64,000 bases of DNA from Prorocentrum cordatum (GCA_963575745.1 CAUYUJ010000185.1:1-64000), one strand, 5' to 3'. Shown: positions 33,932 to 64,000, numbered from the stretch's first letter. The notes: generated by a model from the sequence alone, not told the origin. Numbers and translations: made by a program.

Positions 33932-33993
<62 letters not shown>

Positions 33994-35775
33994 CCTCTAT
34001 ATATATATGTACGACAAGGCGCGCCCGTTGCTCCCGATTGCCTCCTTCATTGTTCCTTCCGGCTTGACGACCTCCCCCGAACCCTGGGTCCATGGCCTGC
34101 CTACGGGGCCCGAGAGTGACTACCTACCAGACCACCCCAACCCAACCCGAAGACCCCAATTCCGGGTTGGGGCGGGGTACGGGTTCCATACGTGTGTTTC
34201 CCATGTTCCCCGACCCCCCCCCCCTCCAACTGGAAATGGAGGGCAAATTGAGGCCTTCGGGTTGGGTTGGGGTGGTTTGGTGGGTAGTGAGACAGCCAGG
34301 GGACGGGCCGAGGGGGAGGGGGCGGGCCGTCGAACCGCGCGAGCACCCGTGGACGCGTCGGAAGCCCTTCCTGGCCCTTGCCGTGCCGTCGGGCGTCGGC
34401 CTCCAGAGGCCAGAGGGGTGCCCCCCCCCACGCCCCCCCACAGGGGAGGAGGAGGAGGAGGAGGAGGAGGAGGAGGAGGAGGAGGAGGAGGAGGAGGAGG
34501 AGGGGGAGGAGGGGGAGGAGGGGGAGGAGGAGGAGGAAGAGGAGGAGGAGGAGGAGGAGGAGGAGGAGAGACGAGGGATGAAGAGGGACCCCCCCAGCCC
34601 GCGAGCACTCGTGTCCTTGCGTGCAGCCTAGTAAAACGCTGGTGACGAAGGCTGCACGGCGCGCGGTACCCGCAACCTTGTACGGTAGATATGCGATCGT
34701 TTGAGGCGGTAGCTTGCACGAGTATCACACGGTGCGTTCAGCTGCAGATCACTCCCCACAAAGCAATGCCGAGGACGTCCATCCATACATGCATCATACA
34801 TATCCTCGGCATCCTCCTCATCGCCATCAGCACCAGCATCATACTCACCATCAGCATCAGCATCATCAGCATCAGCAGCATCATCGTCATCATCAGCAGC
34901 ATCAGCATCAGCATCAGCATCATCATCATCATGATCGGCATCTGCATCATCATCATCACCATCATCATCACCATCACAATCAACAGCATCATCATCATCA
35001 GCAGCATCATCAGCATCATCAGTCTCATCATCGTCATCATCGGCACCCGCATCAACCTCATCATCGTCATCAGCATAGTCAGCACCACATTTAGCGTTAT
35101 TTGCATCATAATCACTATCATCAGCATCAGCATGGCCAGCATCAGCACCATCATCATCAGCATCATCATAGTCAGCAGCAGCAGCAGCATCAGCATCAAC
35201 ATCATCACCATGATCATCGGCATCACCATCGCCACCATCATCATCAACATCCTCAAAATCCTCCACTGGTTGCTCCTCATCATCATCCTTATCCTCCTCA
35301 TCATCATCAGCAGCAGCATCAACAACAGCATCATCATCAGCATCATCCACGCGATAACCCTTAGCACCATCAATCATCATAAGCATCACCAGCATCAGCA
35401 GCACCATCATCATCAGCATCATCAGCACCATGATCATCAACATCATCACCATCACAATCACCATCATCATAAGAATCGTCTGCAGCATCAGCATCAGCAT
35501 CAGCATGGCAAGCATCAACATCAACATCAGCATCAACACCAGCATCATCATCAACATCATCAGCATCAGCATCAGCATCAGCATCATCACCATCACCATC
35601 ATCAGCAGCATCCGCATCAGCAGCATAATCAGCATCAGCATCCGCATCAGCATCAGCATCAGCATCATCAGCATCGTCAGCATCATCATCATCAGCATCA
35701 TCATCATCATCATCATCAGCATCATCAACATCAACATCATCATCATCACCACCATCATCATCATCATCATCATCG

Positions 35776-35829
<54 letters not shown>

Positions 35830-43488: not shown

Positions 43489-44309
43489 GTGTGTAGGCCC
43501 TCCTGGCTGGGGCAGGAAGGTATATTGCACCGATCCCGGGCCCCAGATCGACCTGGCCAGGATCGGTGCAGGCGTAGACTCGGAGCCCTCCGACCTCTGC
43601 CACCCCCAACGCCGTCATACGTGCTGGGGAGACGAGGGTCCCCCACAACCAACACCCCCAGGGCCTCAATCTCCCACACACCGACACACACACACAACAC
43701 GCAAACGACACACACACACACACACACAACACACAACACACACACACAACACACACACATACCACAAACACACACACACACACACACCACACACACACAC
43801 ACACACACGCGCACGCGCGCACGCTTTGGACGTGTCTGGAGGTCTCTGGAGATCTCCTGACTCCCCGAAGGTCGATCGAATTCCCCAAGAGGGGACCCAA
43901 GGAGGGCACGGGATATCTGGCTGGAGGCCCACCCGACAAAAAACAGCCAATGAGAGCAGAAGAAAACGCTCTCCTGCCCTTCTCCCTCTCTCCGAAGAGA
44001 AACAGCGAGGTGGGAAACATCCGCAAGACGACTCACGCCACGATGCCTGGTGGCTTCTATAGCGGTCTTCGACCTCGCACTGTCCACAATAGCGGACAAT
44101 ATTATGTTGTACCGTTATTCGTCCGCTAGCTTGGCTCTGGGGTGCCCTTCTTGGCGTGAGGCTCGTGCTTCCAGAGGCGCACCGCTTGATAATCGCCGAC
44201 GTGCTGGTGGAGGACCTCTGCTTTCACGGCTGGGCTTCATTCACATTTGCGATACGCCAAGAAAAATCAAACTCCTTCACACCCTTCTCCTACCCCTTGC
44301 GTCCTCCTC

Positions 44310-45104
44310 CTTCTCCACTCCTTATCCTTATGAAGAACTCCTCCCTGTCGCACCCCGAGGCGTGTCGGTAGGGCGGGCTGGGCGTTTCGCCTGAGACTTC
44401 TACGCCGTGTCTGGTTCCTAAGGTGAAAAGTTGCAAAGCGTCCCGGATGGATGGCGGGCGGATTTCAAAATGATGTTCTCGCCTTAGCGCCGCGCGCATT
44501 CGTCTTAAAAGTATGCAAGAGCTTCAAGAATGGAGGGCGGGAGGGTTTCAAAATGAGGCTCTCGCCGTAAGGCCGCGCACAGTCGTCTGAAACGCATGCA
44601 AAAGCATCACGGATGGAGAGCGGGCCGCTGTCAAAATGTGACACTCGCCTGGGCGCCGCGCATATTCTTCAAAGCTTGCAAGAGCTTCACGGATGGAGGG
44701 CGGTTCCTTTCCCAAATGTGGCTCTCGCCTCAGCGCCGCGCACGTTCGTTTTAAGAGTCCACAACAGTGTCAAGGCTTCCCCTGGCCATCGCCCCAGAGA
44801 TTGCGTTCCGGCGCGATGTAAGACCGTCAGGGCGCAACAGTTACGTTGACTCCCGGTGTGGAAGACCCCGGGATGGTGTTGTGGCACGATGCAGGGTCGC
44901 CAAGACGCAGCAGTCACGGAGACTCGCCGCGTGGAAGTCCCAGGAATGGTGTTCTGGCACAGTTCGTGGTTTTCAAACGGTGGTCTTCCAACGGGGCACT
45001 TCCCTCAGTGAAAACGGTGCATCCGCGCAGGGGCCTGCGGAGAGGCAACTTGGAGGGAGGGTGTATTGCAATATCGTAAATGAATATTGGGTTTACACTG
45101 GTCA
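44310..45104 (+). mobile_element. Family E copy
   Basis: Same 5' motif (ctgtcgcaccccgagg), 80-83-bp units and 3' end (tacactggtc) running into a CT-rich tract. Confidence 0.8.
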
Positions 45105-45323
45105 TCCTCTTCCTCCTCCTCCTCCTCCTCTACCTCCCGCCCTACCTGATGTCCTCCTTCTCTCCCTCTTTCCCGTCCTCCCTCCCTCCCTCACTGCCCC
45201 CTCCTCTACATTATCCGTCCCTTCCTGCCCATGTTCTTCCTCAGTTTCCTTCCTGCCTACGTGTCCTCTCTTCGTGCCTCCTCCTCCTCCTCCTCCTCCT
45301 CCTCCTCCTCCTCCTCCTCCTCC

Positions 45324-45422
<99 letters not shown>

Positions 45423-45518
45423 CATCATCATCATCATGATCATCATCATCATCACCATCATCACCATCACCATCACCATCATCATCAGCATCATCATCAT
45501 CATCATCCTCATCATCAT

Positions 45519-45559
<41 letters not shown>

Positions 45560-45560
45560 G

Positions 45561-45613
<53 letters not shown>

Positions 45614-46109
45614 GCATCATCATCATCATCATCATCATCCCAGTGTTCCGCATATTTCTCCGCCTTATCCTCTCCTCCTCCTCCTCCTCCTCCTCCTCCT
45701 CCTCCTCGTCCTCCCCGTCCTCCCCGTCCTCTACTCTCAAAAATCGACCCCCCGACCTCTAAAGGGGTTTGTTCTGGCAAGAATCTCCAGACGAAACAAG
45801 CCGTGGCCACGGGGGGTGGCCCCAGGTGGTCTCAGAAAGAAAAAAAAAAAAAAAAAAACGAAAGACCTCGACCGTAGAGCATCGAACCCCGACCGCTCTT
45901 CGCCCACTTCCCCCTCCTGAGCGAAGAATATGGAGGAACAAAAAAAAATGGCATACGTGGACATAAACGTCTGACGGTCCGCGCGGACTCCTTGGATCCG
46001 CGCTGGGACCCCCCTCCCTGGCGCAGGGGTCCCAGAAAGGATCCAAGGAACCCGCGCGGAGCGCCAAGTGTTTAACTAACATGGCATTTTTGTGCTTTCG
46101 AGAAGAAGA

Positions 46110-46891
46110 CCCAGACATGCGACGTCCTGACTTTTTCAGGACGGGGTCCCTGGAAGTCCCGACCCGTCCCCGGGACCGGTTTCTGCGTCGTTTGTTGACG
46201 GTCCCGAGGCCCGGCGAGGGACCCCCGAGGCCGAAAATGGCCAAAAGCCTCCCGTCCTGATTTTCTTCAACAGCGCGAGCTTGTCTGGGGAAGCAGGACC
46301 CTCGGGGGCGCGCAAACATGGATTAGCGATCCATGGATTTGGCGCGCGGTCGCCAAATCCATGGATCGGGGGAGGTGCCCTCCCCAGAATGCGGCCGGTG
46401 CTGCCCCGCTCGGCGCCGGAACTCTGCGCTTCCCCGTGGAAACGGGACCCGTCGCTAATCCACGCCCCCTTGATCCATGTTTGCGATCGCCTGAGACCCG
46501 CAGAGGCCGAAGCCTTCGGAGGTCCCGCGCGGCTTCCGTGGGCCGTGGGGCTCGCACGTGGCCCCCCAGGCTGCACACCCCGCCCCGTGGGGCACGCAGA
46601 GAGCGCCTCTCCGGGCACCGAGGGCGCCTTAGGCGCGGCGCCGCCGGGGGGGGCGCGCGGCGCCGCTCGCCAGGGGCCCGCGGGGCACCTCGGACGGCTG
46701 CGCCGTCGGACCTATAGGACAGAGGGGCCTCCCTCCCAAACATGCTCGCGTCGCGACAAAAAAATCAGGAGGGGAGGTCGCGGGGCCTCGGGAGCGTCAA
46801 CAAACGACGCAGGATGAAAAACCGGTCCCGGGGAACGGGTCGGGACTTCCAGGGACCCCGTATTGAAAAATTCAAGACGTCGCATGTCTGG
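46110..46891. mobile_element. Element with ~170-bp terminal inverted arms and a nested family B copy
   Basis: 46110-46290 is the imperfect reverse complement of 46735-46891 (ccagacatgcgacgtc...gtccctggaagtcccgacccgt...gcgtcgtttgttgacg). Confidence 0.7.
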
Positions 46892-48196
46892 GGTTGCACC
46901 GTCGGACCTGAGACAGACGCACATCCTTCAATTCGCGGCGAGCGAGGGGGGAAGCGAAAAGGGGCGGGCCTTCTCAGAAGGCTCGGAGGTCCACTGGCCT
47001 TCTGAGGAGTTGTTTCTGGGCCTTCCCCGAAAACCGAAAAAACTTCTCAGAAGGCGCGAGGGCTTCTGAGAAGCCCCGCCGCCTTCTAAGAGGGCCGTCT
47101 CTTCTCATTTCCTCCCCTCGCTCGCGGCCGATTCAAGAACATGATACCCTCCGCTGGCCAAAACACCCCCAAACCATAAGATCACCGAGGGTACCCCTCC
47201 CCAGGATGCATAAGAACAGACGACAAACACAAAGAACAATACGGTGCCCTCCCCGAGCCGACCTCGATCTTATACTTCGGTCCGACCGTACGGCACGTTC
47301 GTGTCGTGACGACCCCAGCGTTGGGTCCTGACACCGCGGGGATCGTTCAACCTTGAACGATCGGCCGTTCCCGCAACGTCGGATCGTGCAACGTCGACCG
47401 ATTCTGGGTCGCCAGCAGCGCTCAACGTGGAACGCCGGCAGCGGGGTCGCCGCCGGTCGAACCGACGCGAACCTGCCGTACAGTGATTTGGCGTCCCGAA
47501 ACGGTGCGGTGACAGCCCGTGCGGTGACCTCGAAATCCCCCAAGACCTCACCGCTCGGTCCGTCAACGCACGGTTTTGGGACCTCGGATGCCCCAGCCGC
47601 CCGAGGCGTCCTCGGAGAACGACCCGAGCCCCAAAACCGTGCGGTGACCCCGAGTGGCCCACCGACTCGCCACACGGTGTGGTCGCCGCCCCGTTTGGGG
47701 GCCCCCGAAGTCAGGAGGCCGAACTCGGGGCCGCTCTGGGCTCCGGAGGGGCTCCGTGAACCCGTCTGCGGCCCAGGCACGCCCCGCAGCCAGGAAGGAC
47801 CCATCGTTCCTGAGCATGCGTTCCCTCGCCATCGCTCGGACGTCCATTCCCTGTGTTTTTCTCGGTTTCGCGCGTGGTTTTCGCCAAATGATCAAGGATG
47901 CTCCTCGATGGTCCTCGCCGAGGGAAAAACGCACACGTCCGAGCGATGCCAGGTCCCCGTGCTGGCGCGGTGGCCGTGTGCCGCACGTGCAGTGCTCTTT
48001 TTCTTTCTCCGGGCGCAGCGGCCGCCGCCTCCGTGGTGCGCGGAGGCGCTTCGTAGATGCCCGAGCATCATTGTGCCCAGAGCGCGCAACCCCCTCCTGC
48101 GGGCCGGACGAGGGGGGCTCGCAGGGGAGGGGGGGGGAAGGTAGCGAATCAGCTCACGCAAGCAACCGGTTCTCCTGGCACGTCCTGGCCCTACAG

Positions 48197-51803: not shown

Positions 51804-52030
51804 GTGAGTGTTTTCTCATTCGGCGTTTCGACATTGGGCGGAAAGGGGGGGTCTGGCTCCAGACCTCTGCTCAGTGCGACTGTTTGCAACAGTGCGCCCC
51901 ATGGGGGAGAGACTCCACCTGCTCGAAACGAGCGCCAAAAACAACCAAGATCTACTCCACGAGGCGGGGGTGAGGGGGGGGTGCGCGGGCCCGTGCCGAT
52001 CGGAAAACCAATGACTAAAAAAATGATCAC
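51804..52030 (+). mobile_element. Family H element, 3-bp TSD TAC, nested in a family C repeat
   Basis: TAC|gtgagtgttttctcatt ... aatgatcac|TAC. The empty site is visible in the family C copy at ~47265-47290 (gatcttatacttcggtccgaccgta). Confidence 0.85.
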
Positions 52031-52883
52031 TACCTCGGTCCGACCGTAGAATAGGAGGAAGGAGGCAGAGACAGGGGAAGGCAGCGAGCAGGAGGCAGAG
52101 GCACGGGCAGGAAGCAAATCCATACCCACGGCCTCGCGGGCCAGTCCCCTCGGCCGAACCCCATGGATGCGGGTCGCTTTTTCGCGAATGGCCCGCGCGC
52201 GGAACGTGTCCACGCGACGGCGTGTCCACCGGATCGCGCCCCAGCATGCAAACCGCGAGGGCGGGGATCTTGTGGACACGATCGCCGCCCGTGAGCAGAC
52301 GAGAAGAAGGTCTGGACCACCGGCTCTCCCCCGCAGAGGGCCCCAAGGCATTCGATGTCCGCGTCGTCACAAGACGGGGGCCCAAGAAGTCCCCCTTCCT
52401 CCACAAGGCCGGTTTCTCGTCCCGACGGCCCCTGGGCCCGGGAAGGGCCCCCCGGGCCGAAAAAGGGGCCAAAGCCTTGCGCTGTGACTCTGCTCACGAC
52501 GCGAACCCAGACATGCGGCGCTCTGATTGGTCCGACGCGCAGGCCCCCCGGGGGGTCTGGACCGCTGCCCTGGGGCCGTCGCTTCGCCCTGGGCCGTTGC
52601 TGTTGCGGCCCCAGGGCCGGCAGAGGGCGCCCCCTGAGATGCGACGTTGCGAAAGGCTTGCAACATCGCGAAGGACCACCACCGGAACCCAGACCCCATC
52701 GTTCTGCGTCATGTTTCGAGCCGGGTCGATCTGTGAGAGGGTCCTGGGACCCCACACTGGGCGAAAACGCCCGGTGTGGAAAGATTGCAACGCCAGGATC
52801 TCAGGATTTCGGAACCGGCCGCTCCAAGTTTCTCAGAGCGTCGGATCTCTGGGAGCGCGTCTGGGGCCAGGGGGCGTCTAAGC

Positions 52884-53217
52884 TTAGGTCGGACATGTCC
52901 TCCTACAGGCGGTTTTTGGACGAACTGTAGTTTTGTTAATAGATGCATAAGCATACATATCTCTATATCTATATAAACATTCATTTTACTAAAAACAAAA
53001 CCAACAACAACTACAGCAGCAGCAGCAACAACAACAACTACAACAGCAACAACAACAACAACAGCAGCAGCAACAACGACAACAACCACAACCACAACAA
53101 CAACAGCAGCAGCAGCGACAATAACAACAACCACAGCAACAACAACAACATAACGTCCCCAGACTATTTCTGGCTATGTTTGAATATGCCTCCTGTAGAG
53201 GGACGTGCCCGACTCAA
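52884..53217 (+). mobile_element. MITE family A, copy 8, with internal (AAC/AGC)n expansion
   Basis: TIRs; perfect 8-bp TSD gtctaagc. Confidence 0.88.
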
Positions 53218-54227
53218 GTCTAAGCGTCGAGCTGGCCCCACGGGAGAGCAAAACCCTGGGCAAAGAAAGCGGCCTCTGGCGCGCGGCTTGCGGGGCGCCC
53301 GCGGAAGGCCCAGTGCCCAGCCGCAGGGCCAGCCGGTGCTCGGGAGACCGCCGTGGGCCCGCACCAACGGCCGCTCCGGCGAAGGGTCGCTTTCACGAAT
53401 AGCCGATCGATGCGAGGAGGAGAGGAGGAGGAGGAGGAGGAGGAGGAGGAGGACGACGACGACGAGGAGGACGAGAAAGGGGGGAGGAGGAGGAGGAGGA
53501 GGAGGAGGAGGAGGAGGAGGAGGAGGAGGAGTCGAGGAGGAGTCGAGGAGGAGTCGAGGAGGAGTCGAGGAGGAGGAGGCGCAGGAGGAGAGCGAGGAGG
53601 CAGCAAGCGACCACAACCACATCGAGGATGCTCCCTGGGGAGAATGCCAAAACTGTCGGACCACCGACACCAGCATCGTGCTGGTTGTGGTCGACGTGGC
53701 GTCCCAGGACGGCCACATCCGCCACAACCACGGCCAACAAGGCTCAGATGCCGAGGCCCCCCGAGGGGGGGGTCCCCCCCCCCCCCGAGGGGCCCTCCCG
53801 AACAAAAAGTCCACCCCGCTGTGGCTGTGGCTCCCCGCTGTGCCCGGAGATCGAGCGGGGGCCCGCCACCAGACAGTGCGCAGACTGGCGGCGCGCCGCT
53901 CCCCGGGCCCGGCCTCTCGCTGGCCCCCCCTCAGGGGCCGTCTGTCCAAGGCAGGGGCCAGGGCCCCGCCCCGGCCGGGAGCCGCGGCCCACGGGGGCAC
54001 GCATCGAGGACGGAGAGGAGGAGGAGGGGGAGGAGGAAGAGGAGGAGGAGGAGGAGGAGGAGGAGGAGGAGGAGGAGGAGGAGGAGGAGGAGGAGGAGGA
54101 GGAGGAGGAGGAGGGGGGAGGAGGAGTGAGGGAGGAGGAGGAGGAGAGGAGGAGGAGGAGGGAGGAGGGAGGAGGGGGAGGGGGAGGGGGAGGAAGAGAA
54201 GCAGGAGGAGGAGGAGGAGGAGGAGGA

Positions 54228-54935
54228 GGACCTGTGCAAACCCAAGGCCCAATGAACGATGTTGCAAGGACCCCTCCCTCGTTCCCTCTTCACAGGTCTC
54301 TACAAGGGTTCATGTTTACTGAAGGGAGTGCGCCGCCATCACATGATCCCGAATTGTGACAACCTGAATCGTGCCAGAACACACTTCCTGGGACATCAAC
54401 ACTGCGGATCAACGTGACTGTTGCGCCCTGGCAATCCTACGCCGTCGTGCCAAGACACCATTATTGGACCGTCGGCCGCAAGATCCTCGATACGGTGGTC
54501 AACTGTTCAAACGAATGCGTGCGGGCGAGAACCACATTTTGAAAAGGCACCGCCCTCCACCCGTGCAGCTTCTGCAAACGTTTGAGACGCTAAGGCGAAG
54601 TCCACATTTTGAAAACGACCCGCCGCCCTTCATCCCTGTAGCTCTTGGAAAATTGAAAAAACGAATGCGAGCGGCGCTAAGGCGAAAGCCATATTTTGAA
54701 AACCACCCGCCCTCCATCAGTGAAGCTCTTACAAACTTTGAAAACGAATGTGCGCGGCTCTGAAGCGAGAGCCACATTTTGAAAACGATCCGACCTCCAT
54801 CCGTGAAACTATTGCCAATTCTGTTTACGGATCATAAGACGGTGGGGAGAAATCAAACGGAATGCCCGACCCGCCTTGCCGACAAGTCTCGGGGTGCGGG
54901 AGGGAGGCACGACTCATAAGGAGTGAGAAGGGATG
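54228..54935 (-). mobile_element. Family E copy (reverse); more diverged copies at ~13985-14558 (+) and ~7070-7335 (-)
   Basis: Reverse-complement units ccacattttgaaaac...ccgccctccatc. Confidence 0.75.
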
Positions 54936-55264
54936 GAGGATGAAGGGGGGGGGGGGGAGGGGGAGAAGGGAGGAGGAGAGGAGGAGGAGGAGGAGGAGGA
55001 GAGGAGGAGGACGGAGATGAGGAGGAGGAGGAGGAGGGGGAGGAGGGAGGAGGAGGAGGAGCAGGTGGAGGAGCAGGTGGAGGAGCAGAAGGACAGGGTT
55101 GTACCTGGGCCACCGTGCGGGAGCACAACGCCCGGCAGAGGCCCAGCATTCGGCACCGTAGCTGGCGCACAAAGATCATTCCACACCCCAGGCGCCACGA
55201 ACGAGACGACAAGGTGGTCCAGAGAAGCCCACCCACGCCGCCGATTCCGAACTCCAATCTTTAC

Positions 55265-55342
55265 CTCACTTCCCTGCTGGCAGGTGCGCGGACGCACAAA
55301 ATTCTCGAACTGGGCGCCCCTCTTCGCAGCGTCTTCGTTCAT
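55265..55342 (-). CDS. Possible upstream or first coding exon MNEDAAKRGAQFENFVRPRTCQQGSE
   Basis: ATG-initiated 78-nt frame ending GAG|gtaaag; link to the downstream chain not established. Confidence 0.3.
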
Positions 55343-55733
55343 TGGAATCGCGGGGGGGTGGGGGCATTTCAGGAGGAGGAAGAGGAGGAGGAGGAGGAGG
55401 AGGAGGAGGAGGAGGAGGAGGAGGAGGAGGAGGAGGAGGAGGAGGAGGAGGAGGGGGAGGAGGAGGAGGAGGAGGAGAGGGAGGATGAGGGAGGGAGGGA
55501 GGACCATGGGACGTGATAGGCAAACCCGCGGCACCAGCAGCACCGCCGCCACCACCAGCCGCCACCGACAGAGGTCGTCGCCGGAGCGCCGCCCAGGGCC
55601 GACGCGCGGCGGCCGCAGTGGGCGGGGCCGCGCGCCCCCTTCGGGGCCGCAACTCTCGCAGGACGTGCGGGCGACGCTGCAGACGCCATCGACACAGGAA
55701 CGTGTTCGGCACGGCCCGCGCGTTCCAGGAATA

Positions 55734-55912
55734 CCCCAGATTTCGTAATAAAGGGAGGGGGTCTCATTTCGGGGGGGGTCTCTTCCAGGCTATCTTGGAG
55801 GGCCTGGGGGGGTCTGGGGACGATGTTTTGGAGGGTTCTCCCAGGGGGGGAGGTCTAAAACTTTTCGTCTGGGAGGGTTGAGACCCCCTCCCTTTTATTA
55901 CGAAATCTGGAG
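55734..55912. mobile_element. TA-flanked MITE with ~34-bp TIRs
   Basis: TA|C(C/T)CCAGATTTCGTAATAAAGGGAGGGGGTCTCA and its reverse complement ending |TA. Confidence 0.85.
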
Positions 55913-56416
55913 TACCCGTGCTTTCGCGTGGCCATCCCGAAAAACCTCACCACGGCACAGGGCAAGACGAGCATCCACCTGGCCAGAAGAAGGACGGGCG
56001 GACGGCCGCAATGATACCAGCAGCATCCAACTGACGATGTCGAACTCTACCTCGGGCCATCCGCTCGACACGGTCGACGGCGTCAACCTCCACGATCGAG
56101 CGTTTAGGACCACTGTGCGAGGTCACGTAAAAGAGCTCCCGCTCACGGCAGCCGGCTTGGACACCTAAGGAGGACAGCCCGTCTGCGAGAGCAACCACCA
56201 AGGAGCGGCAGCAAGGCATCTCTCCAGCGGCGGCTCCCATCCCTCGAAAATGGAGGCACGCGAGGAGCAGCGCGGCATTCCGCAGCATCGCAGAAGGCGC
56301 CACGCCCTGCAGTCCCGCTCCGCGGCGGGCAGCCGAACACATGAACGGGCCCCATCCGAGCGGCGCGGCCCTGTAACTCTTGAACAAACATAGCTACGGA
56401 GACGAGGAGGGGGAAG

Positions 56417-56516
56417 NNNNNNNNNNNNNNNNNNNNNNNNNNNNNNNNNNNNNNNNNNNNNNNNNNNNNNNNNNNNNNNNNNNNNNNNNNNNNNNNNNNN
56501 NNNNNNNNNNNNNNNN
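56417..56516. other. Assembly gap (100 N)
   Basis: Run of N; true distance and adjacency across it are unknown. Confidence 1.
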
Positions 56517-56721
56517 AGGCCCGAGCCTGATGAGGGGAAGGGTGAAGTGATAGGGGAGCCGAAGACAGGGCAGAAGGAGGAGGGGTGGATGGAGGGAAGG
56601 ATGGCTGGGTGACAGACGGCGACAAGACGGCAGAGATACTGAGGAGGGCAACCACCGTAGGGGAGGGCAGGGACACAGAAGGGATACGAGGGCGCGGGTG
56701 GACAGAGGGAGGAGAGCGCGT

Positions 56722-56779
<58 letters not shown>

Positions 56780-56873
56780 AAGAAATAGAGAGAGAGAGAG
56801 AGAGAGAGAAAGAGGAGAGAGAGGGAGAGTGAGAGCGAGAGAGAACTGTAACTCTGATGCAATACCCGAGGAC

Positions 56874-59800
56874 ATGGGCGGGCTAGGTGGAGTGGAATAG
56901 AGCTCGAGAGACGAGGATGGCAAAGCCGCGGCCTTGTCGTTGGTGTCGTTCTCGTTGTCGTTGTCGTTGTTGTCGTCCTGGGGGGCGGCATCGATGCGTC
57001 ATCGATGACCTCATCGATGACGCATCGACGCTGTTACCCGCCGCTGCGAGGCGACCCCGCTGCCCAGCTGCGCGCGGAGCTCGCCGCGCAGGCGAGGCAG
57101 CTGGCTGAGGCGGCAACCGGTGACGCTGGAGGCGTCGTGGGATGGGCGTTGCAGACGAGTAGAGAGTCGATGATGAGGAGGATGAGGGGGAGGCGGGGGA
57201 GGCGGCAGTGGAGGTGGAGTAGGATGCGGTGGAGGAGGATGAGGGGGGGGATGTGGAGGAGGAGGCGTTGAAGATGGTGAAGGGGAGGTTGGATGGCGGC
57301 ATTGCTGGCGACTGTGGCGGCCGCGACCACCTCGACAACGACGACGACGACTGCAAAGGTGTCGGCGTTTAACGATCGCAATGGCAATACTGATGGCGAC
57401 GCGGATGGCGACTGCAAAGCCGACGACGTCGACAACGCCGACAACGATGACGACAACGCACCCGCGAGCGCTGCTGCAAGGCCCTGGCGCGGCTGCCGAC
57501 GATGGACCAGAGCACGCGGCTGGGGGTGATGGTTCAGGCGGGGGCTGCCTTTCTCTGTGCTGCAATTCGACTCGCCGACGTCGTCGTCTCCTCCTCCTCC
57601 CCCTCCTCCTCCTCCTCCTCCTCCTCCTCCTCGTCCTCCTCTCCCTTCCTTCCCCTTGCGTCCCCCTGCTCCAGGATGGTGCAAGGAAACAAAAGCGGTG
57701 GTAGTTGAATGTGGGAAGGAGTGGGTTAAAGTTCGGAAGAGGAGGATGAGGCGTAGGTGGCGACGACGGTGGGGAGGGAGGGCGTGGAGGAGAACGATTG
57801 TGGTCAGAAAGCAGAGAGGAAACCGTGAGGATCGACGGGAAGGGGGATGAGGGAGGGTGAGGAGGAGGGGGAGAAATTGGGAGGAGGAGGAGGAGGAGGA
57901 GGAGGAAAAGGCGGATGATGAGCGGATGCTGAGCATAGTCAGCACGGGCAGGGTCCAGTTAGCACGCGACATGCTATTTGGCAGGCGGCGGCGAACCCGA
58001 CGGCGCGCCCGACGCCGACGTGGAGACCGTGAACTCGAGCATCACGGGCGGCGAGACGCAACTCGATCAGGACACGCAGAGGGCACTTCTGCGCAGCGTG
58101 TGGCATCAGGAGGGTGCTGCATCACCTGGTGCTGCATCATCAGGGTACTACGAGCCCGAGGAGCTGGACCCCGACGCTGCAAGCGCGGACGGCGCCGCAG
58201 GCGAGGCGCGCGTCCGCATCAACATCTATGCTGCAGAGGAGGCAGGCTCTGATGAGGATGAGCTGGCTGAGGAGGCTGGGCCGCGCGAGGAGGCTGAGCC
58301 TGGCGACGACAAGGCGGTTGGCCGCGACATGGGCTGCACTTCCAGCGACGAGGTCCCGCTGAGCCAGAGCGCCGTTTCGCCCGCGCGTCCGGTCGCCAAG
58401 CGGCGCATGAAGGGCAAGGGCAAGAAGAAGGGCAAGGGCAAGGCCAAGGTCAAGCCCACTGGCAAGCCCACTGGCAAGCCCAAGCGCAAGACGAAGGTTG
58501 GAGTCGTCCGAACGTTTACCTGGATGCTCGTGAAGATCCCCTGCCAACGCGGCAGAGGATCTTGTAGAGAGCCAAGTAAACGCTCGCACGGACTCCTGAA
58601 GGCTGCCAGGATGCAATACGCTTTGGATGAGGGCTTGGACGATGCGATCTTATTTGGCGATGACGGCGCGGAGGAGGTTCCAGCAGGTGGGCCAGAACGC
58701 GCAGGCGCAGCTGATGAGCCAGAACGCCGAGTCGCACCTGAGCCAGAACCAGCAGTCGCAGAGGTTGCATCATCGCCCGCAGATTCACCGATGCCGAAGA
58801 GGAGGCTGAGGAAGAAAAGCCGCCAGCTTGATGATGACAGCGACAACGCTCCACTCAGCCAGTCCAGCAAAGCGGTGGCACCTGAGCCAAGCAGTGCAGC
58901 GCCTCCGACCCCATCGACCATCGCAGGGGAAATCCCTCGCGCCATGACCCGCAAGAGGTCAACTGGCACGCCGTCAGCCGCACCGTCAGCCGCGCAGTCA
59001 CTCTGGAAGGATCACGGTGGCAGCCGTCAGCCATCCGTGGCCGCACCGTCAGCCGCGCCGTCGCTCTGGCAGGATCACGGTGGCAGCCGTCAGCCATCCG
59101 TGGCGCCATCGGTTGCAGGATCGTTCAGTCGCGATGTCAGCCGTGACCGCGTGGCGGTGCCAAGTTCGGCACGGGCGCCGTCGGCGCGGACGCCGTCGGC
59201 ACGGGCCGCGCCGTTCACCCCCCAGGACCAGATCGACACGAGGACTTCTGCGGGGGCACCGAACCTAGAGACCTAGAGGAGTCAGATGAGACGATGACGA
59301 TGACGACCACGACGACGACGACGATGAGAGCGACGACGACGACAACAAAGACGACTGGAAAGTAACCCTTGACGACGGAACAGGATGAATGCGAGGAGGT
59401 GGGATGGCGAAATACTGAAGATGACGTGGTGGATGGATGGGAAGTGTGGGGTGGGTAGAGGGCAGAGGTCTGGGGCCTAACCCCGATACCCCAACGCCTT
59501 GTCTCTAATTCCACCACAGCTCGCCCTTTATATCCCTGCGAACCTGCCAAGGTGTGATCGGGGCATATCGTGGGCGGTGTAGTGGCGGCGGGACAACGCG
59601 TCAACTTTTCAACGCCTCATCAGGAGGTGCACGCAGGGCGATGACGAGACACCAGAGAAAGGTTTGGCCGAGAAGATGCAGGACTTGCTGAAGTCCAAGG
59701 TGCACGAGCTCAGTCGGTCCGACAAGGAAAAGTTCCAGGCTGGCCACGCTGCCGCTCTCACTGGGAATATGACGCCGATGCAGAAAAAGTTCTACAAGGG

Positions 59801-61625
59801 TGACATGCAGTGTAAGGAGACGATCGAGAAAGGCGATGGGAACTTCATGATGCGGTCGGCATTGGGGCAACGGTTGCAGCGAGAGATCAGGCTCAAACAG
59901 TCAGTTGCGAAAGAGTACTCCGACGCCACGGACAAGGATGAGTACAAGAAACGGTGGGCCAAGAAGCAGTACCAAGGCGCCATCAAGCGGCTCAAGACGG
60001 TCACAGAATCGGTGGACGAGCAGTGGATCTCCAAGGGCATCGTGTGTTCCTTCCTCAAGATGTGCTACCACGAGGGGGGGCCCCGCGGACAGTACGACGA
60101 GGAGACGATCACCAACTGCCAGAAGCAAGCCAACAGGTGCATCGCACTCGGGTACCCCTTCGTTCGCTTGGACGACGTCGGCACCGTCAAGTACATGTGG
60201 TTCGAGCAACAGTGGGCGGAGCATTTCACCAAGCGCTGGGAGCTGAAGTCGGTGCAGGCGGAAAAGGATGATGACTCGTTCGTTGTCAAGAAGAGGCCAG
60301 CTGGCAAACCGCTCCCCGCGCCAGGCGAGTCTGATCCAGACGCTGGAGGTGACGACGGTGATGGAGATGGCGACGGTGATGGAGATGGCGATGGAGAGAC
60401 CCCGAGGCCGAAACGGGCCAGGACAGATGCCGAGGTGCTGTTGACGGAGGCCCGCAAGACGATCGTCACTGTCCAATCGATTTTGTCGAGTGCGACAACG
60501 GTCTCGAACTGCATCAAGGAGAACCCCGACGATGCAGAGGCCGAGTGGGCGTGGGCTCGCACGCCCGCCGTCCAGGGGAAGATCACGAGCATGTACGACT
60601 CCATCAACGACAAGGTGATGCAGAACCCAGTCTGGCTGAAGCTCATGAACGGCTGCGCGCTCGCCAAGGCCATTGTTTGGCTAAATTCGCCGAGTGGGTG
60701 GTTAGTAGGGGCGATGGTCAGCTTGAGCAGTTGGGCGAAGTAGTGAGGAGGATGGGAGGAGGAGGACAGGAGGAGGACAGGATGAGGACGGGAAGGAGGG
60801 GGTCGACCACGGCAAGAAGGATGAGGACAGGGACGACGAGGAGAAGGAGAAGGATGACGATGACGACCAGGAGGGTACGAGAGAAGGATGCAGACGATGG
60901 GGACGACAATGGTAACGATGAGGACGACGAAGCGAACGCGGACGAACGTCTCTCGCACCACCCCCGACCTGCCCAGGTGAAAACATCGTTCGAAGACGCG
61001 GACATCATCCTGCACTGCAACACGGGCAAAGTGGACTCCTTGAAGGATCGTCGGCCTGCGGGGGGTGGAGCGCGCGACGACGGCCCCGTGACTTCGACAA
61101 CGGCGGCAGCGAACACGGTCACGGCAGACGTGCGACGGTATTAGCGACGACGGCGGTGACGTCACCGACAGCAACGGCAATGTTGACGGCGACGGCGGCA
61201 TTGACGGCGGAGATGACGACGACGACGACCAAAACAGCGACGACGACCGCGATGACGACGAGCACAACGACGACGACCACGACGGCGACGGCGACGTTGG
61301 ACACGACATCGGCGGCGGGCGACGGCGACGACGCTGCAACATGGACGGCGACGAGACTGGTGAGTGGATTATATGCCGACTGTGCATCCCAGGTCCGAAT
61401 CAAATCCGTGGAACGCTTGGGCCCGTCTGTTTGATTGGCGCGTGCTAGGGGGCTGCGTCTGTTCACGCGGCTGTGTGCAAGTCGGCGCGCCCGCAGGATG
61501 AGGCCGATAAGCTGAACACGACGCTCCAGAACACTCTGAGCTCGAACGAGAATATCCAGGGCGTCCAGAAGAAGGCCAACCCCGCCGCGCGCAAGAAGTC
61601 GAACAGGGCTCGCACGGTGACGTGA
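56874..61625 (+). CDS. Spliced gene for an unknown ~815-aa probably nuclear protein (candidate transposon accessory ORF). Exons: 56874-56886, 57051-57119, 57985-58496, 58602-59225, 59637-60668, 60977-61045, 61497-61625
   Basis: The seven exons join in frame (2448 nt, ending TGA 61623-61625). Acceptors are all AG|G; donors are GT, GT, GT, GA, GC, GA. Strong GC3 bias. Protein has an acidic N-terminus, a Lys-rich segment (KRRMKGKGKKKGKGKAKVKPTGKPTGKPKRKTK), a globular domain (EYKKRWAKK...KGIVCSFLKMCYHEGG...CIALGYPFV...YMWFEQQWAEHFTKRW) and a helical C-terminus. The first two exons and the 105-nt in-frame intron are the least certain parts. Confidence 0.75.
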
Positions 61626-62223
61626 TTTCGCCTGAACGCCACTGTGCGCTGTTGTTGTGTAGGGGCATCTTGGTGGCGTCTGTCGCGGTGCATCGGGCAT
61701 GTGCGCGTCTCCTTCGGTCACCTTCCTTGTTTTAAATGTGTGTGTACGATCAATTCAATTTGTACACATCGAAACGGGGGTATCCTGGTGATTCTCTGGC
61801 AAACGAAATACGGATCTTGATGAAATGCGGGGGTGCGGTTTTCGAGAAGACATCTATGTCTTGCCACAATACCCTGGAGACGCTCAAGTGTCCTGGTTTG
61901 ACGTGCCATCGTGTACGGCCCTTTTGAGAGCGGCGCCTGGACCCTGGGATGATTCAGCGCGGCACTGGCTGTACAGCGCTGAGCACGTGGCATGTCGACA
62001 GTCGCTGCTAGGGCGCGGCAATGGCCACCTGTACCATGTGCGGGGATATCGCGCATGGGGTGCAATGTTTCTCTTTTTAGGTCGAGCGGTTGCACCTAGG
62101 GACGACGACGGCGACGCCGAATGCGTGCACATGTGCTCACCTGACGACATGTCACCCCCAAACACCAACATTCCCACACATTCTGCAAAATTATCGTGCG
62201 CGTCGTGTCCGGACTGCGCGCGC

Positions 62224-62440
62224 TACCGATGACCCACCGATGACCTACCGATGACGCGTCATCGATGAGCTCATCGATGAGCTCATCGATGAGCTCATCG
62301 ATGACCTGCCCCAAACCATATATATATATACGAAAAGTGCGATGTCGCATCGATGACTTACCGATGACCATCGATGTCCTACCGATGATCCACCGATGAC
62401 CCACCGATGACCCACCGATGACCTACCGATGACACGCCGA
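62224..62440. repeat. Array of 11-bp C(C/T)ACCGATGAC and palindromic 12-bp GCTCATCGATGA units
   Basis: Direct reading; a related palindrome lies at 56988-57031. Confidence 0.85.
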
Positions 62441-62689
62441 CAAGAGCTCCCAAACCGTGACACGATGCCCTCCTAAAGCATTATGATGTCGAAGGAATCG
62501 AGATAGTGTACGACCCGCCCATGTATTCTACATCATATTGCAGACATCGTCGTCGTCGTCAGTGTTATCATCATCATCACTGGTGTTTAAGCTATTCTGC
62601 ACACGCGGTAGGCACTACGATCACGCCATCGTTGCTCACTTGTTTGCACCATCGTGTTCAGAGCCGCGTTTGGCTCGATTAATTGGACC

Positions 62690-63624
62690 ATGGAGGTCCG
62701 TAGGCGGCGCACCTTGTCACCGCCCGTGGCACCAGCTGCGAGGGCCGAATCTGGAGAGGCCCTGCTCGCTGAGTTTCAACGTTTATTTTGTCTCGGCACC
62801 ATCACAGCCAAAAGCTTTTGCGAGCTCGCGTACCACGCAGCCCGAGCTGGGGCCGTCGGGGAAATCAAGCAGTGGGGTCTAGCGCCTCAGCCGCAAGCGA
62901 ACAGTGGAAACTACAACAAGCTCATCGAACGCAAGATCCGTGATGCTGGTGTCACTGTTGTACAACCCGTTAGCATAGATGTGCCATGCCAGGCACGGAA
63001 ATCTCGCAGCAGAGCCATCATGCAAACTGGAGCGCGCCCATTCCACGAGCTTGTGAAATCTGAAGTTGCATCACCGTTGTCTGCATTGGTTATGCGAGAG
63101 CGCATCTCCGACCGATCGTGGCCCCCCGCGTTCAACGAACATCCTGTCAAGGTCGGTGCTGGCCCTGGTGTCCTAGTCATACCAGTCGGTTTGTTTGTGG
63201 ATGCAGCGCAATATGGTGGCGCTGCTGGCGCTGGTCGGAGTAAATCTGTCTTGGTGTTTTCAATTATCAATTTGGCGACCCAGCGTCGCCATGTGGGGAT
63301 CACGTTTCGGAAGCACCTTCATTGTAAATGCGGCTGTCGCGGCAATTGCTCATATGCCAGGCTGTTCACATTTGTACGCTGGTGCGCCGACGCAATGTCG
63401 ACTGGTGAATACCCTCGGTCCGACTGGGACGGGCGGCGGTGGGCGGACGCCGATGCGGCGCGACGTGCGCTCGGTGGTACAAAGTTGGGCTTCAAATGTG
63501 CGCTGATTTACGTGATGGTAGACTGGGAAGCCCTGGTCAATCACCTTGGGCTGCCGCAGTGGAACTCGACTGTGGGATCCTGCCCGCTATGTGATTCAAC
63601 GCTGGCGAACAGGCACAGTTACAG
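62690..63624 (+). CDS. First exon of a putative DDE transposase, Plavaka/CMC (CACTA-like) type; gene probably continues past a GT intron and beyond the window
   Basis: Stop-free, high-complexity ORF from ATG 62690 to AG|gtgagc (intron from 63625). Motif order VIPVGLFVDAAQY, then CKCGCRGNC, then ALIYVMVDWE, then GLPQW...CPLC. This fits the P-x-x-L-x-x-D / D-x-x-E / C(2)C layout of Plavaka and CMC transposases. Assigned by motif recognition only. Confidence 0.65.
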
Positions 63625-64000
63625 GTGAGCGTTTTTTTTTCCATTCATTCATGCCAGTCGCGAAGTCATCATCCTCACCCTTTGTTTCGTCGTCCTCCAT
63701 TTCCTCCTACTCCTCCTTCCCCTCATCATCCTCCTAACCCACCCCCTTCTCGTCCCTCTCCCAACCCCTCCGCGACGGCGGAGGCGGCGACGACGTGCGT
63801 CCGGTTAGCATGAGTAATTCCAAACGCACGGTGCAACCAGCTCGACGCGCGCACGTGCATGCAACGAGACAATCCTTGCAGCAAGTGACGGGGGTATGTT
63901 GCAGCGCCTCGAGTAGGTCGCGTTTTTGATGTGTGGGCCCACATTAAAATTTAACCCCTGTGTACGCACATCATCCCTGGAGGATTGTCTCGTGACACGC

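What the first reader, a model, noticed from the sequence alone, without database searches (positions are those of the whole stretch)
56874..64000. Candidate autonomous two-gene DNA transposon: unknown nuclear ORF1 plus a Plavaka/CMC-like transposase, both with dinoflagellate-type introns
Seen: two co-oriented, stop-free genes about 1 kb apart, with large exons and short introns (0.1-0.9 kb in ORF1), unlike the micro-exon, MITE-filled gene left of the gap. I saw none of the MITE families inside this block. Known: CACTA/CMC and PIF/Harbinger elements pair a DDE transposase with a DNA-binding accessory protein. Inference: a young element of a poorly described CMC/Plavaka-related lineage, with ORF1 as the accessory protein. 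Its ends are not visible because of the gap and window edge.
Basis: partly seen in the sequence, partly recalled or inferred. Interest (0 to 1): 0.8.

Follow-up and report, generated by a model that had tools for sequence, protein, structure and literature searches.

The report
RAG1-fold transposase gene with partner gene
The block holds the first exon of a cut-and-paste transposase whose predicted fold resembles RAG1 and Transib, next to a conserved upstream partner gene of unknown function, but nothing yet shows that the pair moves or is young.

Summary
Two co-oriented genes lie 1,064 nt apart.

- **ORF1:** the conserved exon is 59583-60668 and the terminal exon is 61497-61625. The low-complexity ORF 57963-59273 is an uncertain upstream exon.
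- **Transposase:** exon 1 (62690-63624) ends at an AG|GTGAG donor.

The transposase reading is supported.
- A profile of this exon finds 2,906 representative proteins. Full-length ones are about 600-700 aa.
- An AlphaFold model of the closest full-length relative has pLDDT 89.5. Its best matches among solved structures are RAG1 (Z 12.3-12.6, about 415 residues aligned), BbRAGL and HzTransib.
- D-D-D and a C(2)C motif are invariant.

It is not a Pfam Plavaka or CACTA member. None of 77 full-length relatives reaches any Pfam cut-off.

Linkage has one independent support. A metagenome contig whose transposase is 51% identical carries the same upstream layout. It has a GC3-rich terminal exon like that of ORF1, then a phased CCGATGAC array with a TCATCGATGA palindrome, then the transposase.

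No element ends, target-site duplications, extra copies or RNA were seen. "Young" is unsupported. ORF1's function is unknown.

The parts
56989..57028 (.). Palindromic CATCGATGA(C/G)C repeats (about 3.5 units), roughly 0.94 kb upstream of ORF A. The motif is the same as in the core of the module upstream of the transposase.
   Evidence: TCATCGATGA occurs 6 times in 64 kb, only at 56999-57020 (2) and 62259-62304 (4). None of 100 shuffles reaches 6. Tandem-repeat rows; D7/I19.
57963..59273 (+). ORF A: a 437-aa stop-free, low-complexity, Lys/Arg-rich frame. It is a possible upstream exon or exons of ORF1, with its first in-frame ATG at 58329 (MGC...). Its coding status is uncertain.
   Evidence: No Pfam hit. 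Weak codon periodicity of 0.68/0.59/0.69. It is in the same frame as ORF B. ORF B needs an upstream start because its conserved DETPEKG (59643) precedes its first ATG.
59583..60668 (+). ORF1 conserved exon (ORF B): a mostly helical protein of an unnamed family. The predicted exon end is AAG|GC at 60668/60669.
   Evidence: 4 homologues at 42-47% identity with 78 invariant columns. GC by codon position is 0.56/0.42/0.79. Three of 4 homologues (the fourth stops earlier) lose similarity right after the K/Q that precedes V (GTN) or A (GCN). Sequence.
60669..61496 (+). Predicted GC-AG intron of ORF1 (828 nt), filled with GAG/GAC-type simple repeats.
   Evidence: Donor and acceptor read. Phase 0 on both sides. 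Repeats. No RNA evidence.
61497..61625 (+). Predicted terminal exon of ORF1 (42 codons plus TGA), with a basic tail.
   Evidence: GC by position is 0.50/0.43/0.88. Codon-usage score is 0.259 in frame against -0.249 and -0.067 out of frame. A similar exon lies in L001 at 128-280 (score 45; 27 of 5000 shuffles reach it; best of all six-frame segments of L001; GC3 0.90).
62225..62433 (+). Conserved upstream module. In order: 3 direct CCGATGAC units, a 48-bp perfect palindrome of TCATCGATGAGC units (62258-62305), CCAAACC plus an AT-rich core, then 5-6 more CCGATGAC units at 11-bp phasing. All units are on one strand. It is probably a protein-binding or promoter region.
   Evidence: ACCGATGAC occurs 8 times in 64 kb, all here, and none of 100 shuffles reaches 8. 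I22. A collinear module in L001 at 762-918 has 9 CCGATGAC, and none of 200 shuffles reaches 9.
62690..63624 (+). Exon 1 of the transposase gene (about 312 codons). It covers the N-terminal helical region and the first two-thirds of the RNase H-like core. It carries D171, the C212/C214/C216/C220 cluster, D278 and C298-x-x-C301.
63625..64000 (+). Start of the first transposase intron (GTGAGC donor), running to the window end. The remaining roughly 300-350 codons, including the third catalytic Asp, lie outside the window.
   Evidence: The same AG|GTGAGC donor sits at the same codon in L001. Five of the 6 close homologues end 0-6 residues after the same 'YR'; P0003 has FR there, and the longest tail is 9 residues.

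Best explanation
The block holds a conserved, co-oriented gene pair.

**The transposase.** The downstream gene (exon 1 at 62690-63624) encodes the N-terminal half of a cut-and-paste transposase of about 600-700 aa. It belongs to a very large, unnamed family. The predicted architecture is that of the RAG1/Transib core. In order it has a helical N-terminal DNA-binding/dimerisation-like region, an RNase H-like catalytic domain with an Asp-Asp-Asp triad, a C(2)C-containing insertion after the second Asp, and a helical C-terminal domain.

**The partner.** The upstream gene (ORF1; exons 59583-60668 and 61497-61625, perhaps more in 57963-59273) encodes a lineage-restricted helical protein with a basic tail.

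**The module.** Between the genes lies a conserved module of phased CCGATGAC repeats around a TCATCGATGA palindrome. The palindrome recurs upstream of ORF1.

**Most likely working (inferred, not shown).** The pair and its repeat modules are parts of one DNA transposon, or the remnant of one. The transposase would cut and rejoin DNA with its DDD site, as RAG1 and Transib do. The repeat arrays would be binding sites for an element-encoded protein, either the transposase N-terminus or ORF1. Through them that protein would control transcription of both genes or help assemble the transposition complex.

**What is shown:** coding conservation, fold, invariant residues, conserved module, and conserved gene order in one other locus.

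**What is inferred:** catalysis, binding to the repeats, any role of ORF1, and mobility.
For: Transposase identity:
- The exon-1 profile finds 2,906 representatives at E<=1e-3 and 497 at E<=1e-30. Full-length forms are about 600-700 aa.
- The AF2 model of the closest full-length relative, P0160 (41% identical to the window exon), has pLDDT 89.5 and pTM 0.87.
- In Foldseek, the 19 best PDB rows are all RAG1/RAGL. The best has E 3.4e-4 and probability 1.00.
- In VIA-align, RAG1 scores Z 12.6 (413 aligned, rmsd 6.3). Seventeen RAG1/BbRAGL entries score Z>=10.6. HzTransib scores 8.5 and P-element transposase 7.7.
- An independent scan of 48,161 chains puts RAG1 (12.3), BbRAGL (11.2), HzTransib (8.2) and P element (7.7) in the top 7. 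Everything below scores <=6.5.
- Conservation in P0160 numbering: D196 87/87, D301 87/87, D467 76/76, C321 87/87, C324 86/87.
- DSSP of the model places D196 in a strand, D301 just after a strand and D467 at the start of a long helix. These are the places expected for an RNase H-fold triad (the expectation is from general knowledge).
- The window exon keeps both Asp residues and all the Cys residues.
- In the ESM atlas the nearest named clusters are Plavaka (0.90; 19% of members carry the family) and RAG1 RNase H (0.88).

Gene pair and module:
- L001's transposase exon is 51% identical and has the same donor site.
- L001 carries 9 CCGATGAC units plus the palindrome, 459-615 nt upstream of its ATG. 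The window has its units 257-465 nt upstream. The two modules align collinearly.
- 482 nt upstream of the L001 module is a phase-0, CAG|G-preceded, GC3-rich (0.90) terminal exon resembling that of ORF1. The local alignment score is 45, and 27 of 5000 shuffles reach it.
- TCATCGATGA occurs in the window only upstream of ORF1 and upstream of the transposase.
Against: - No terminal inverted repeats, target-site duplications or empty sites were seen. The element's ends, if any, are hidden by the gap (56417-56516) and the window edge.
- The window holds only one copy of each gene.
- In the DNA contigs laid at >=85% likeness, the coding bins have depth 0-10, and the run's own identical pieces have depth about 3. 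High depth falls only on simple repeats. By the tool's own warning this is a weak measure.
- The closest relatives found are 60% (transposase) and 47% (ORF1) identical. There is no sign of recent activity.
- Linkage rests on one extra locus and a 34-column (31-residue) alignment with p of about 0.005. That contig is cut before any ORF B equivalent could appear.
- ORF1 and the transposase use codons differently (GC3 0.79-0.88 against 0.59). That would fit genes of different origin.
- All CCGATGAC units point the same way, which fits a promoter better than a pair of element termini.
- The H(3-4)H motif that defines the CMCT clade is absent.
- No sequence-level match to any named transposase family was found.
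Confidence: 0.6

Rival explanations
1. This is a transposase-only element beside an unrelated host gene. The mobile unit would start at or near the CCGATGAC module (about 62.2 kb) and run beyond the window. ORF1 would be a normal lineage-specific nuclear gene that happens to lie upstream.
For: - The codon usage of ORF1 (GC3 0.79-0.88) differs from that of the transposase exon (0.59).
- The ORF B search found only 4 homologues (word-based), against 2,906 representatives for the transposase (full HMMER). The methods differ, so this comparison is weak.
- Full-length relatives sit alone on contigs of about 2.2-3.4 kb.
- En/Spm-type elements carry their promoter and binding-site repeats at the 5' end (general knowledge).
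Against: - L001 has an ORF1-like terminal exon at a similar distance and in the same orientation upstream of the same module.
- The TCATCGATGA palindrome also sits upstream of ORF1 and nowhere else in 64 kb.
- ORF1 relatives (42-47% identity) are slightly more diverged than the transposase relatives (51-60%). This is compatible with co-divergence.
Confidence: 0.2
2. This is a domesticated or host-maintained gene pair. A RAG1-fold recombinase and its partner would be kept at fixed loci for a cellular function and would no longer be mobile.
For: - Catalytic residues and Cys clusters are invariant across 76-87 diverged sequences.
- Intron position, start codon and upstream module are conserved between copies only 51% identical.
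- There are no near-identical extra copies.
- The exon is intact.
Against: - A family of 2,906 clusters at 50% identity, with many paralogous lineages, looks like a proliferating element family and not like one host gene.
- Conservation of catalytic residues is equally expected in active transposons.
- Neither synteny nor expression could be tested.
Confidence: 0.15
3. This is dead coding debris. The ORFs would be decayed pseudogenes or chance frames in GC-rich DNA, with no current function.
For: - Long spurious stop-free frames are common in this window.
- ORF A has no support as coding sequence.
- No RNA holder is listed.
Against: - ORF B and ORF C have homologues with E-values of 1e-71 to 1e-127 and no internal stops.
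- ORF B has strong codon periodicity.
- All invariant residues of the family are kept in the window exon.
Confidence: 0.03

Closest known systems
RAG1 and RAG1-like transposases of RAGL transposons (mouse RAG1 core 4wwx/6oes; amphioxus BbRAG1L 6b40; AanRAGL of Aureococcus, PMC9435367)
   Same: - It is the best structural match over about 405-424 aligned residues, from the region matching RAG1 residues ~459 onwards through the RNase H core (Z 10.6-12.6).
- An acidic triad and a C(2)C motif lie about 20 residues after the second Asp. The RAG1 spacing D708-C727/C730 is recalled from memory, not tested here.
- As in AanRAGL, a partner gene lies upstream and is transcribed in the same direction (PMC9435367, most of the main text (part 1 of 2) and passages read).
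   Different: - There is no sequence-level match to Pfam RAG1 models or to PDB RAG1 sequences.
- The third catalytic residue is Asp, not Glu.
- There is no H(3-4)H motif. A second C(2)C (C356/C359) is present instead, plus an extra CxCxC(3)C cluster between the first two Asp residues.
- The aligned range starts at RAG1 residue 454-461 or later, so no counterpart of the N-terminal nonamer-binding part was aligned.
- The partner is predicted to be helical, not a RAG2-like propeller. That model is of low confidence.
- RSS-like ends were not seen.
Transib transposases (HzTransib, PDB 6pqn/6pqr)
   Same: - The overall fold is the same (Z 8.2-8.5, 319-325 residues aligned).
- It is a eukaryotic cut-and-paste transposase of the same clade.
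   Different: - The structural score is lower than for RAG1.
- There is no sequence match.
- Transib elements are described as single-gene elements (general knowledge).
- A 5-bp target-site duplication and CACAGTG-like ends could not be tested. One CACTGTG at 61640 is at chance level.
CMCT clade in general: EnSpm/CACTA, Mirage, Chapaev, Plavaka, ESTA, Lanisha (Kojima 2025, PMC12730594; Yuan & Wessler 2011, cited there)
   Same: - It has an acidic triad with a C(2)C motif after the second Asp.
- By protein-language-model features the nearest named cluster is Plavaka (0.90).
- One of 77 relatives gives a weak DUF4218 hit at its C-terminus (E 0.022, below the cut-off, and expected by chance over 77 scans).
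- Multi-exon transposase genes are known in CACTA elements (title and abstract of PMC4158355 seen in the listing).
   Different: - No Pfam Plavaka (PF18759) or Transposase_21 (PF02992) match was found in the window exon or in 77 relatives.
- H(3-4)H is absent.
- CA..TG termini and 2-5 bp target-site duplications could not be tested.
En/Spm (CACTA) two-protein system with subterminal TnpA-binding repeats (general knowledge, not tested here)
   Same: - A transposase is paired with a second element-encoded protein.
- There are arrays of short repeats of about 11-12 bp near a promoter.
   Different: - Here there are two separate genes, not alternative splicing of one transcript.
- The repeats all have one orientation and lie between the genes.
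- ORF1 shows no similarity to any named protein.

Membership tests
DDE/D cut-and-paste transposases (RNase H-like fold) | An RNase H-like core with three conserved acidic residues, on beta-1, after beta-4 and on a following helix. | tested here: met
   Tested for the family through relative P0160. The model has pLDDT 89.5. D196 87/87, D301 87/87 and D467 76/76 are conserved, and DSSP places them in a strand, after a strand and at a helix start. The top fold matches are all transposases or recombinases. The window itself holds only the first two Asp residues (D171, D278).
CMCT clade (EnSpm/CACTA, Mirage, Chapaev, Transib, Plavaka, ESTA, Lanisha, RAG1; PMC12730594) | [quoted passage not shown] | tested here: met
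   C321 87/87 and C324 86/87, which lie 20 and 23 residues after D301. In the window this is CPLC at residues 298-301.
CMCT clade | An H(3-4)H motif before the last catalytic residue. | tested here: not met
   No conserved His pair lies between 325 and 466. There is only H448 (53/77), and H470 lies after D467. A second C(2)C is present instead (C356 65/77, C359 70/78).
CMCT clade | 5'-CA..TG-3' termini and 2-5 bp target-site duplications. | not testable with these tools
   The ends lie outside the window or in the gap. No source genome is held, and only one short related locus was found.
Plavaka (Pfam PF18759) | A match to the family profile. | tested here: not met
   There was no hit at E<=1 for the window exon, at E<=0.1 for 12 full-length relatives, or at E<=1 for 65 more. 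The only link is a language-model feature lead of 0.90 to a cluster where 19% of members carry Plavaka.
CACTA/EnSpm TnpD-type (Pfam Transposase_21 PF02992 plus DUF4218) | A match to the family profiles. | tested here: not met
   Transposase_21 never appeared. DUF4218 appeared once in 77 (P0037, E 0.022, 15.1 bits against a cut-off of 27). That is chance level over 77 scans.
Transib / RAG1 | Fold of the RAG1 core, from the dimerisation/DNA-binding region through the RNase H and zinc-binding parts. | tested here: met
   RAG1 scores Z 12.3-12.6 with 413-417 residues aligned. BbRAGL scores 11.2 and HzTransib 8.2-8.5. These stand above all unrelated chains (<=6.5) among 48,161.
Transib / RAG1 | Sequence-profile membership (Pfam RAG1 models; PDB RAG1/Transib sequences). 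| tested here: not met
   No Pfam RAG1 family hit. The profile of 87 sequences against PDB sequences gave a best E of 0.67, to unrelated proteins.
RAGL two-gene transposon | A RAG2-like (kelch propeller) partner gene. | tested here: inconclusive
   The ORF B model is almost all helices but has low confidence (pLDDT 54.1). It has no fold match and no Pfam or PDB match.
   Both loci whose upstream DNA can be read (the window and L001) show an ORF1-type terminal exon, then the module, then the transposase. L001 is cut before any ORF B equivalent. No boundaries were seen. The tool that would fetch the other homologues' contigs is closed.

The most novel reading that the evidence does not exclude
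The pair is a new lineage of RAG1-fold DDD recombinases. It is abundant in marine protists and invisible to Pfam. It has its own dedicated partner gene and a phased binding-site array. It would be a second, independent 'RAG1-like enzyme plus partner' system alongside RAG1L-RAG2L. Its partner would be a new helical protein instead of a kelch propeller. It could be either a new superfamily-level branch of the CMCT clade or a host-adopted recombination system.
Probability: 0.2. Interest if true: 0.8.

Novelty: new variant of a known kind. Interest (0 to 1): 0.55.

Why it matters
RAG1, the enzyme behind antibody gene assembly, descends from Transib-like transposons. Relatives in unicellular eukaryotes are few in print (PMC9435367).

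This block belongs to a family of thousands of diverged RAG1-fold transposase genes. Sources name them only 'hypothetical protein', and no Pfam model detects them. Three features set it apart: a DDD triad, a different zinc-ligand pattern and a conserved partner gene. Together they would widen the known diversity of this clade.

It would also offer a second natural case of a RAG1-like enzyme travelling with a partner.

For genome annotation of the source lineage, it flags a large unannotated transposase family and a recognisable cis-module (the CCGATGAC array) that can be used to find further copies.

Tried and rejected
- **Own genome:** none is held. Copy number, co-occurrence, terminal repeats and target-site duplications could not be tested in the source assembly.
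- **Earlier notes of this scan:** nothing by place or by sequence, and nothing for the five-word query.
- **RNA:** no RNA holder is listed. The four runs laid were DNA contigs. The joints listed all fall in GAC/GAG simple repeats and were disregarded.
- **ORF B relatives in other collections:** 0 loci in metagenome contigs, 0 in viral contigs and 0 in prokaryote genomes.
- **ORF B longer forms:** none found, which the tool calls weak evidence.
- **Close transposase relatives in viral contigs:** 0.
- **The 87-sequence alignment (A3):** it was not usable for a locus scan.
- **The array pattern (three CCGATGAC units with 3-base gaps) in prokaryote genomes:** 73 loci, none of which encodes ORF B or the transposase by tblastn. 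These are chance matches in GC-rich bacteria. In viral contigs: 0.
- **ORF B function:**
  - The ESM atlas gave no usable hit.
  - The AF2 model was poor (pLDDT 54.1).
  - Foldseek gave nothing at E<=0.001.
  - The PDB sequence profile gave a best E of 0.035, to a splicing factor over an acidic stretch.
  - Pfam gave only sub-threshold noise.
- **Complex prediction of transposase exon 1 with ORF B:** no verdict (score 0.00). This is no evidence either way.
- **RSS-like heptamers:** one CACTGTG at 61640 and none in L001. This is chance level.
- **Module as a junction of two element ends:** rejected, because all CCGATGAC units point the same way.
- **Literature:** six searches found no paper in the held library that describes this family or any RAG1/Transib-like element in dinoflagellates. 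Repbase and subscription journals were not searchable. Supplements were not opened, so the supplementary tables of PMC9435367 (species lists of RAG1L fragments) may bear on this.

Full report
**What is there**

Right of the assembly gap (N 56417-56516), the + strand carries three long stop-free frames:
- ORF A, 57963-59273 (437 aa)
- ORF B, 59583-60740 (386 aa)
- ORF C, 62612-63625 (338 aa)

No whole genome is held for the window. All comparison had to come from public protein and contig collections.

ORF B and ORF C are real coding sequence.
- ORF B has 4 unnamed homologues at 42-47% identity, with E from 8e-71 to 5e-88.
- ORF C has 6 homologues at 51-60% identity, with E from 9e-108 to 4e-127.
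- Each occurs once in the window.

ORF A is low-complexity and has no family match. Its codon periodicity is weak (0.68/0.59/0.69). Three other frames of 440 aa or more occur elsewhere in this GC-rich window. Its coding status is therefore open.

**Gene models (inferred; no RNA run holds the stretch)**

Transposase gene:
- It starts at ATG 62690. Five of its 6 close homologues start 2-4 residues before the same RRRT(I/L)SPP motif. The sixth has a longer N-terminus.
- Exon 1 ends at AG|GTGAGC (63624/63625).
- Five of the 6 homologues stop 0-6 residues after the same 'YR'; P0003 has FR there, and the longest tail is 9 residues.
- The one homologue whose DNA I could read (L001) has the same donor at the same codon.

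ORF1:
- The conserved DETPEKG (59643) lies upstream of the first in-frame ATG of ORF B. An upstream exon is therefore needed.
- At the 3' end, 3 of 4 homologues lose similarity right after a K/Q followed by V (GTN) or A (GCN). The fourth stops earlier. This fits a GT/GC donor. In the window this is AAG|GC at 60668/60669.
- A CAG|G acceptor at 61496/61497 opens a 42-codon exon that ends in TGA at 61623-61625.
- That exon shares ORF B's strong codon bias. GC by position is 0.50/0.43/0.88, against 0.56/0.42/0.79 for ORF B. Its in-frame codon score is 0.259, against -0.249 and -0.067 out of frame.

The two genes are co-oriented and 1,064 nt apart. The block shares only simple-repeat similarity with the left 56 kb.

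**What the downstream gene is**

Pfam finds nothing for the window exon. It also finds nothing above cut-off for 77 full-length relatives (12, 65). The only family-relevant row is a single DUF4218 hit at E 0.022, which is at chance level over 77 scans.

The family is nevertheless huge. A profile of the exon and its 6 relatives finds 2,906 representative proteins at E<=1e-3, 1,452 at <=1e-10 and 497 at <=1e-30. Full-length ones are about 600-700 aa. Where sources name them, they are only 'hypothetical protein'. Cluster look-ups covered 18 proteins.

I aligned 87 members and modelled the closest full-length relative, P0160 (643 aa, 41% identical to the window exon). The model has pLDDT 89.5 and pTM 0.87.

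Structure comparison gave the following.
- Foldseek against the PDB: the 19 best rows are all RAG1 or amphioxus RAG1-like. The best has E 3.4e-4 and probability 1.00.
- VIA-align on Foldseek's own matches: RAG1 scores Z 12.6 (413 residues aligned, rmsd 6.3). Seventeen RAG1/BbRAGL entries score Z>=10.6. HzTransib scores 8.5, P-element transposase 7.7 and ISCth4 5.7.
- A scan of 48,161 chains that does not rely on Foldseek: RAG1 12.3, BbRAGL 11.2, HzTransib 8.2 and P element 7.7 fill the top 7. Unrelated helical bundles follow at <=6.5.

Conservation fits a catalytic transposase.
- D196 87/87, D301 87/87 and D467 76/76.
- In the model's secondary structure these sit in a strand, just after a strand and at the start of a long helix.
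- C321 and C324 form a C(2)C motif 20 and 23 residues after the second Asp.
- The window exon keeps D171, D278, CPLC (298-301) and a CxCxC(3)C cluster (212-220).

By protein-language-model features, the nearest named clusters are Plavaka (0.90; 19% of members carry the family) and RAG1 RNase H (0.88).

**How it compares with known families**

Kojima 2025 (PMC12730594, passages read) groups EnSpm/CACTA, Mirage, Chapaev, Transib, Plavaka, ESTA, Lanisha and RAG1 as the CMCT clade. [quoted passage not shown] Its members mostly have CA..TG termini and 2-5 bp target-site duplications.

This family meets some of these features and not others.
- It meets the fold and the C(2)C motif.
- It lacks H(3-4)H. 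It has a second C(2)C instead (C356 65/77, C359 70/78).
- It ends the triad with Asp.
- It matches no named profile.

The closest solved relatives are RAG1 and Transib. No CMC or Plavaka structure appeared among the matches for comparison.

**Is it a two-gene unit?**

One related locus could be read: L001, a 2,446-bp metagenome contig whose transposase exon is 51% identical. It shows three things.

1. *A shared upstream module.*
   - In the window, ACCGATGAC occurs 8 times, all at 62225-62433 (none of 100 shuffles reaches 8).
   - These units flank a 48-bp perfect palindrome of TCATCGATGAGC units and a CCAAACC/AT-rich core.
   - L001 has 9 CCGATGAC units (none of 200 shuffles reaches 9), the TCATCGATGA palindrome and the CCAAACC/AT-rich core in the same order, with 11-bp phasing.
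   - The module ends 257 nt before the ATG in the window and 459 nt before it in L001.
2. *An ORF1-like terminal exon.*
   - 482 nt upstream of the L001 module (600 nt in the window) lies a phase-0 exon. It is preceded by CAG|G, has GC3 0.90 and ends in TAA with a Lys-rich tail.
   - It aligns to ORF1's terminal exon with a score of 45. Shuffles give 27.7 +/- 5.0, and 27 of 5000 reach 45. It is the best of all six-frame segments of L001; the next scores 32.
3. *A limit.* L001 is cut before any ORF B equivalent could appear.

In addition, TCATCGATGA occurs in the 64-kb window only at 56999-57020, upstream of ORF1, and at 62259-62304, upstream of the transposase (6 matches; none of 100 shuffles reaches 6).

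This is real but thin support for a conserved ORF1-module-transposase unit.

Against it:
- The GC3 of ORF1 (0.79-0.88) differs from that of the transposase exon (0.59).
- All array units point one way. This suits a promoter or regulatory array better than element termini.

**Activity and age**

Nothing shows mobility.
- No terminal repeats or target-site duplications could be sought.
- The closest relatives are 60% and 47% identical.
- DNA contigs laid at >=85% likeness give depth 0-10 on the coding bins. One run's identical pieces are at depth about 3. High depth falls only on simple repeats. The tool warns that depth is not copy number.

'Young element' is not supported.

**ORF1 function**

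The function is unknown. Five approaches gave nothing usable:
- The ESM atlas gave no usable hit.
- The AF2 model has pLDDT 54.1 and is mostly helical.
- There is no fold match.
- There is no PDB or Pfam match.
- No longer forms were found.

**Context from print and earlier notes**

Earlier notes of this scan describe RAG1-fold transposases with partner genes in another protist (unchecked AI notes, one marked as partly fallen). They pointed me to Tao et al. 2022 (PMC9435367; most of the main text (part 1 of 2) and passages read).

In that paper, the Aureococcus RAGL transposon has its RAG2-like gene upstream of the RAG1-like gene and co-oriented with it. It has asymmetric terminal repeats and 5-bp target-site duplications. 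The layout here is parallel, but the partner does not look RAG2-like.

Six literature searches found no description of this family, or of RAG1/Transib-like elements in dinoflagellates, in the held library. Repbase could not be searched.

**Verdict**

| Claim | Confidence |
|---|---|
| A genuine transposase gene (exon 1) of a large, unannotated, RAG1-fold DDD lineage of the CMCT clade | about 0.9 |
| It forms a conserved unit with the upstream ORF1 gene and the repeat modules | about 0.55-0.6 |
| It is young or currently mobile | no evidence |

I rate it a new variant of a known kind, of moderate interest.

Noticed in passing
window 62258-62305: A 48-bp perfect palindrome (24-nt arms with no spacer), made of four TCATCGATGAGC units, lies inside the module upstream of the transposase. 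It could extrude as a cruciform.
   Followed up: partly
window 62310-62335 and L001 805-835: The conserved core of the module contains CCAAACC next to an AT-rich stretch (TATATATATA in the window, TGTAAATTTACA in L001). CCAAACC is also part of the 13-bp terminal-repeat element CACACCCAAACCT reported for AanRAGL (PMC9435367). This may be coincidence.
   Followed up: no
window 61640-61646: A single CACTGTG (the complement of the RSS-type heptamer CACAGTG) lies 15 nt after the ORF1 stop. It is the only one in 56517-64000, and there is none in L001. This is chance level.
   Followed up: partly
window 59583-61625 versus 62690-63624: The two neighbouring genes differ in third-position GC: ORF1 exons have 0.79-0.88 and transposase exon 1 has 0.59. 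In L001 the values are 0.90 and 0.70.
   Followed up: partly
window 58977-59102: A 63-bp tandem duplication (95% identical) lies inside ORF A and encodes a repeated SRQPSVAAPSAA..LW.DHGG peptide. ORF A also has a Lys/Gly-rich run at 58410-58497.
   Followed up: no
window 56704-56844: A long (GA)n microsatellite of about 71 units sits directly right of the assembly gap (56417-56516). Purine-rich GAG/GGA arrays extend to about 57920.
   Followed up: no
proteins P0019-P0194: Full-length family members of 600-700 aa mostly sit on contigs of 2.2-3.4 kb. One cluster has 42 members at >=90% identity. These contig sizes would fit assembled transcripts, which hints at expression of relatives. This was not checked.
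   Followed up: no
window 24000-28000, 32000-36000, 44000-48000, 52000-56000: The left part of the window has dispersed repeat families. In these intervals 19-30% of bases have 2 or more self-hits of 80 nt or more. None extends into the block.
   Followed up: no
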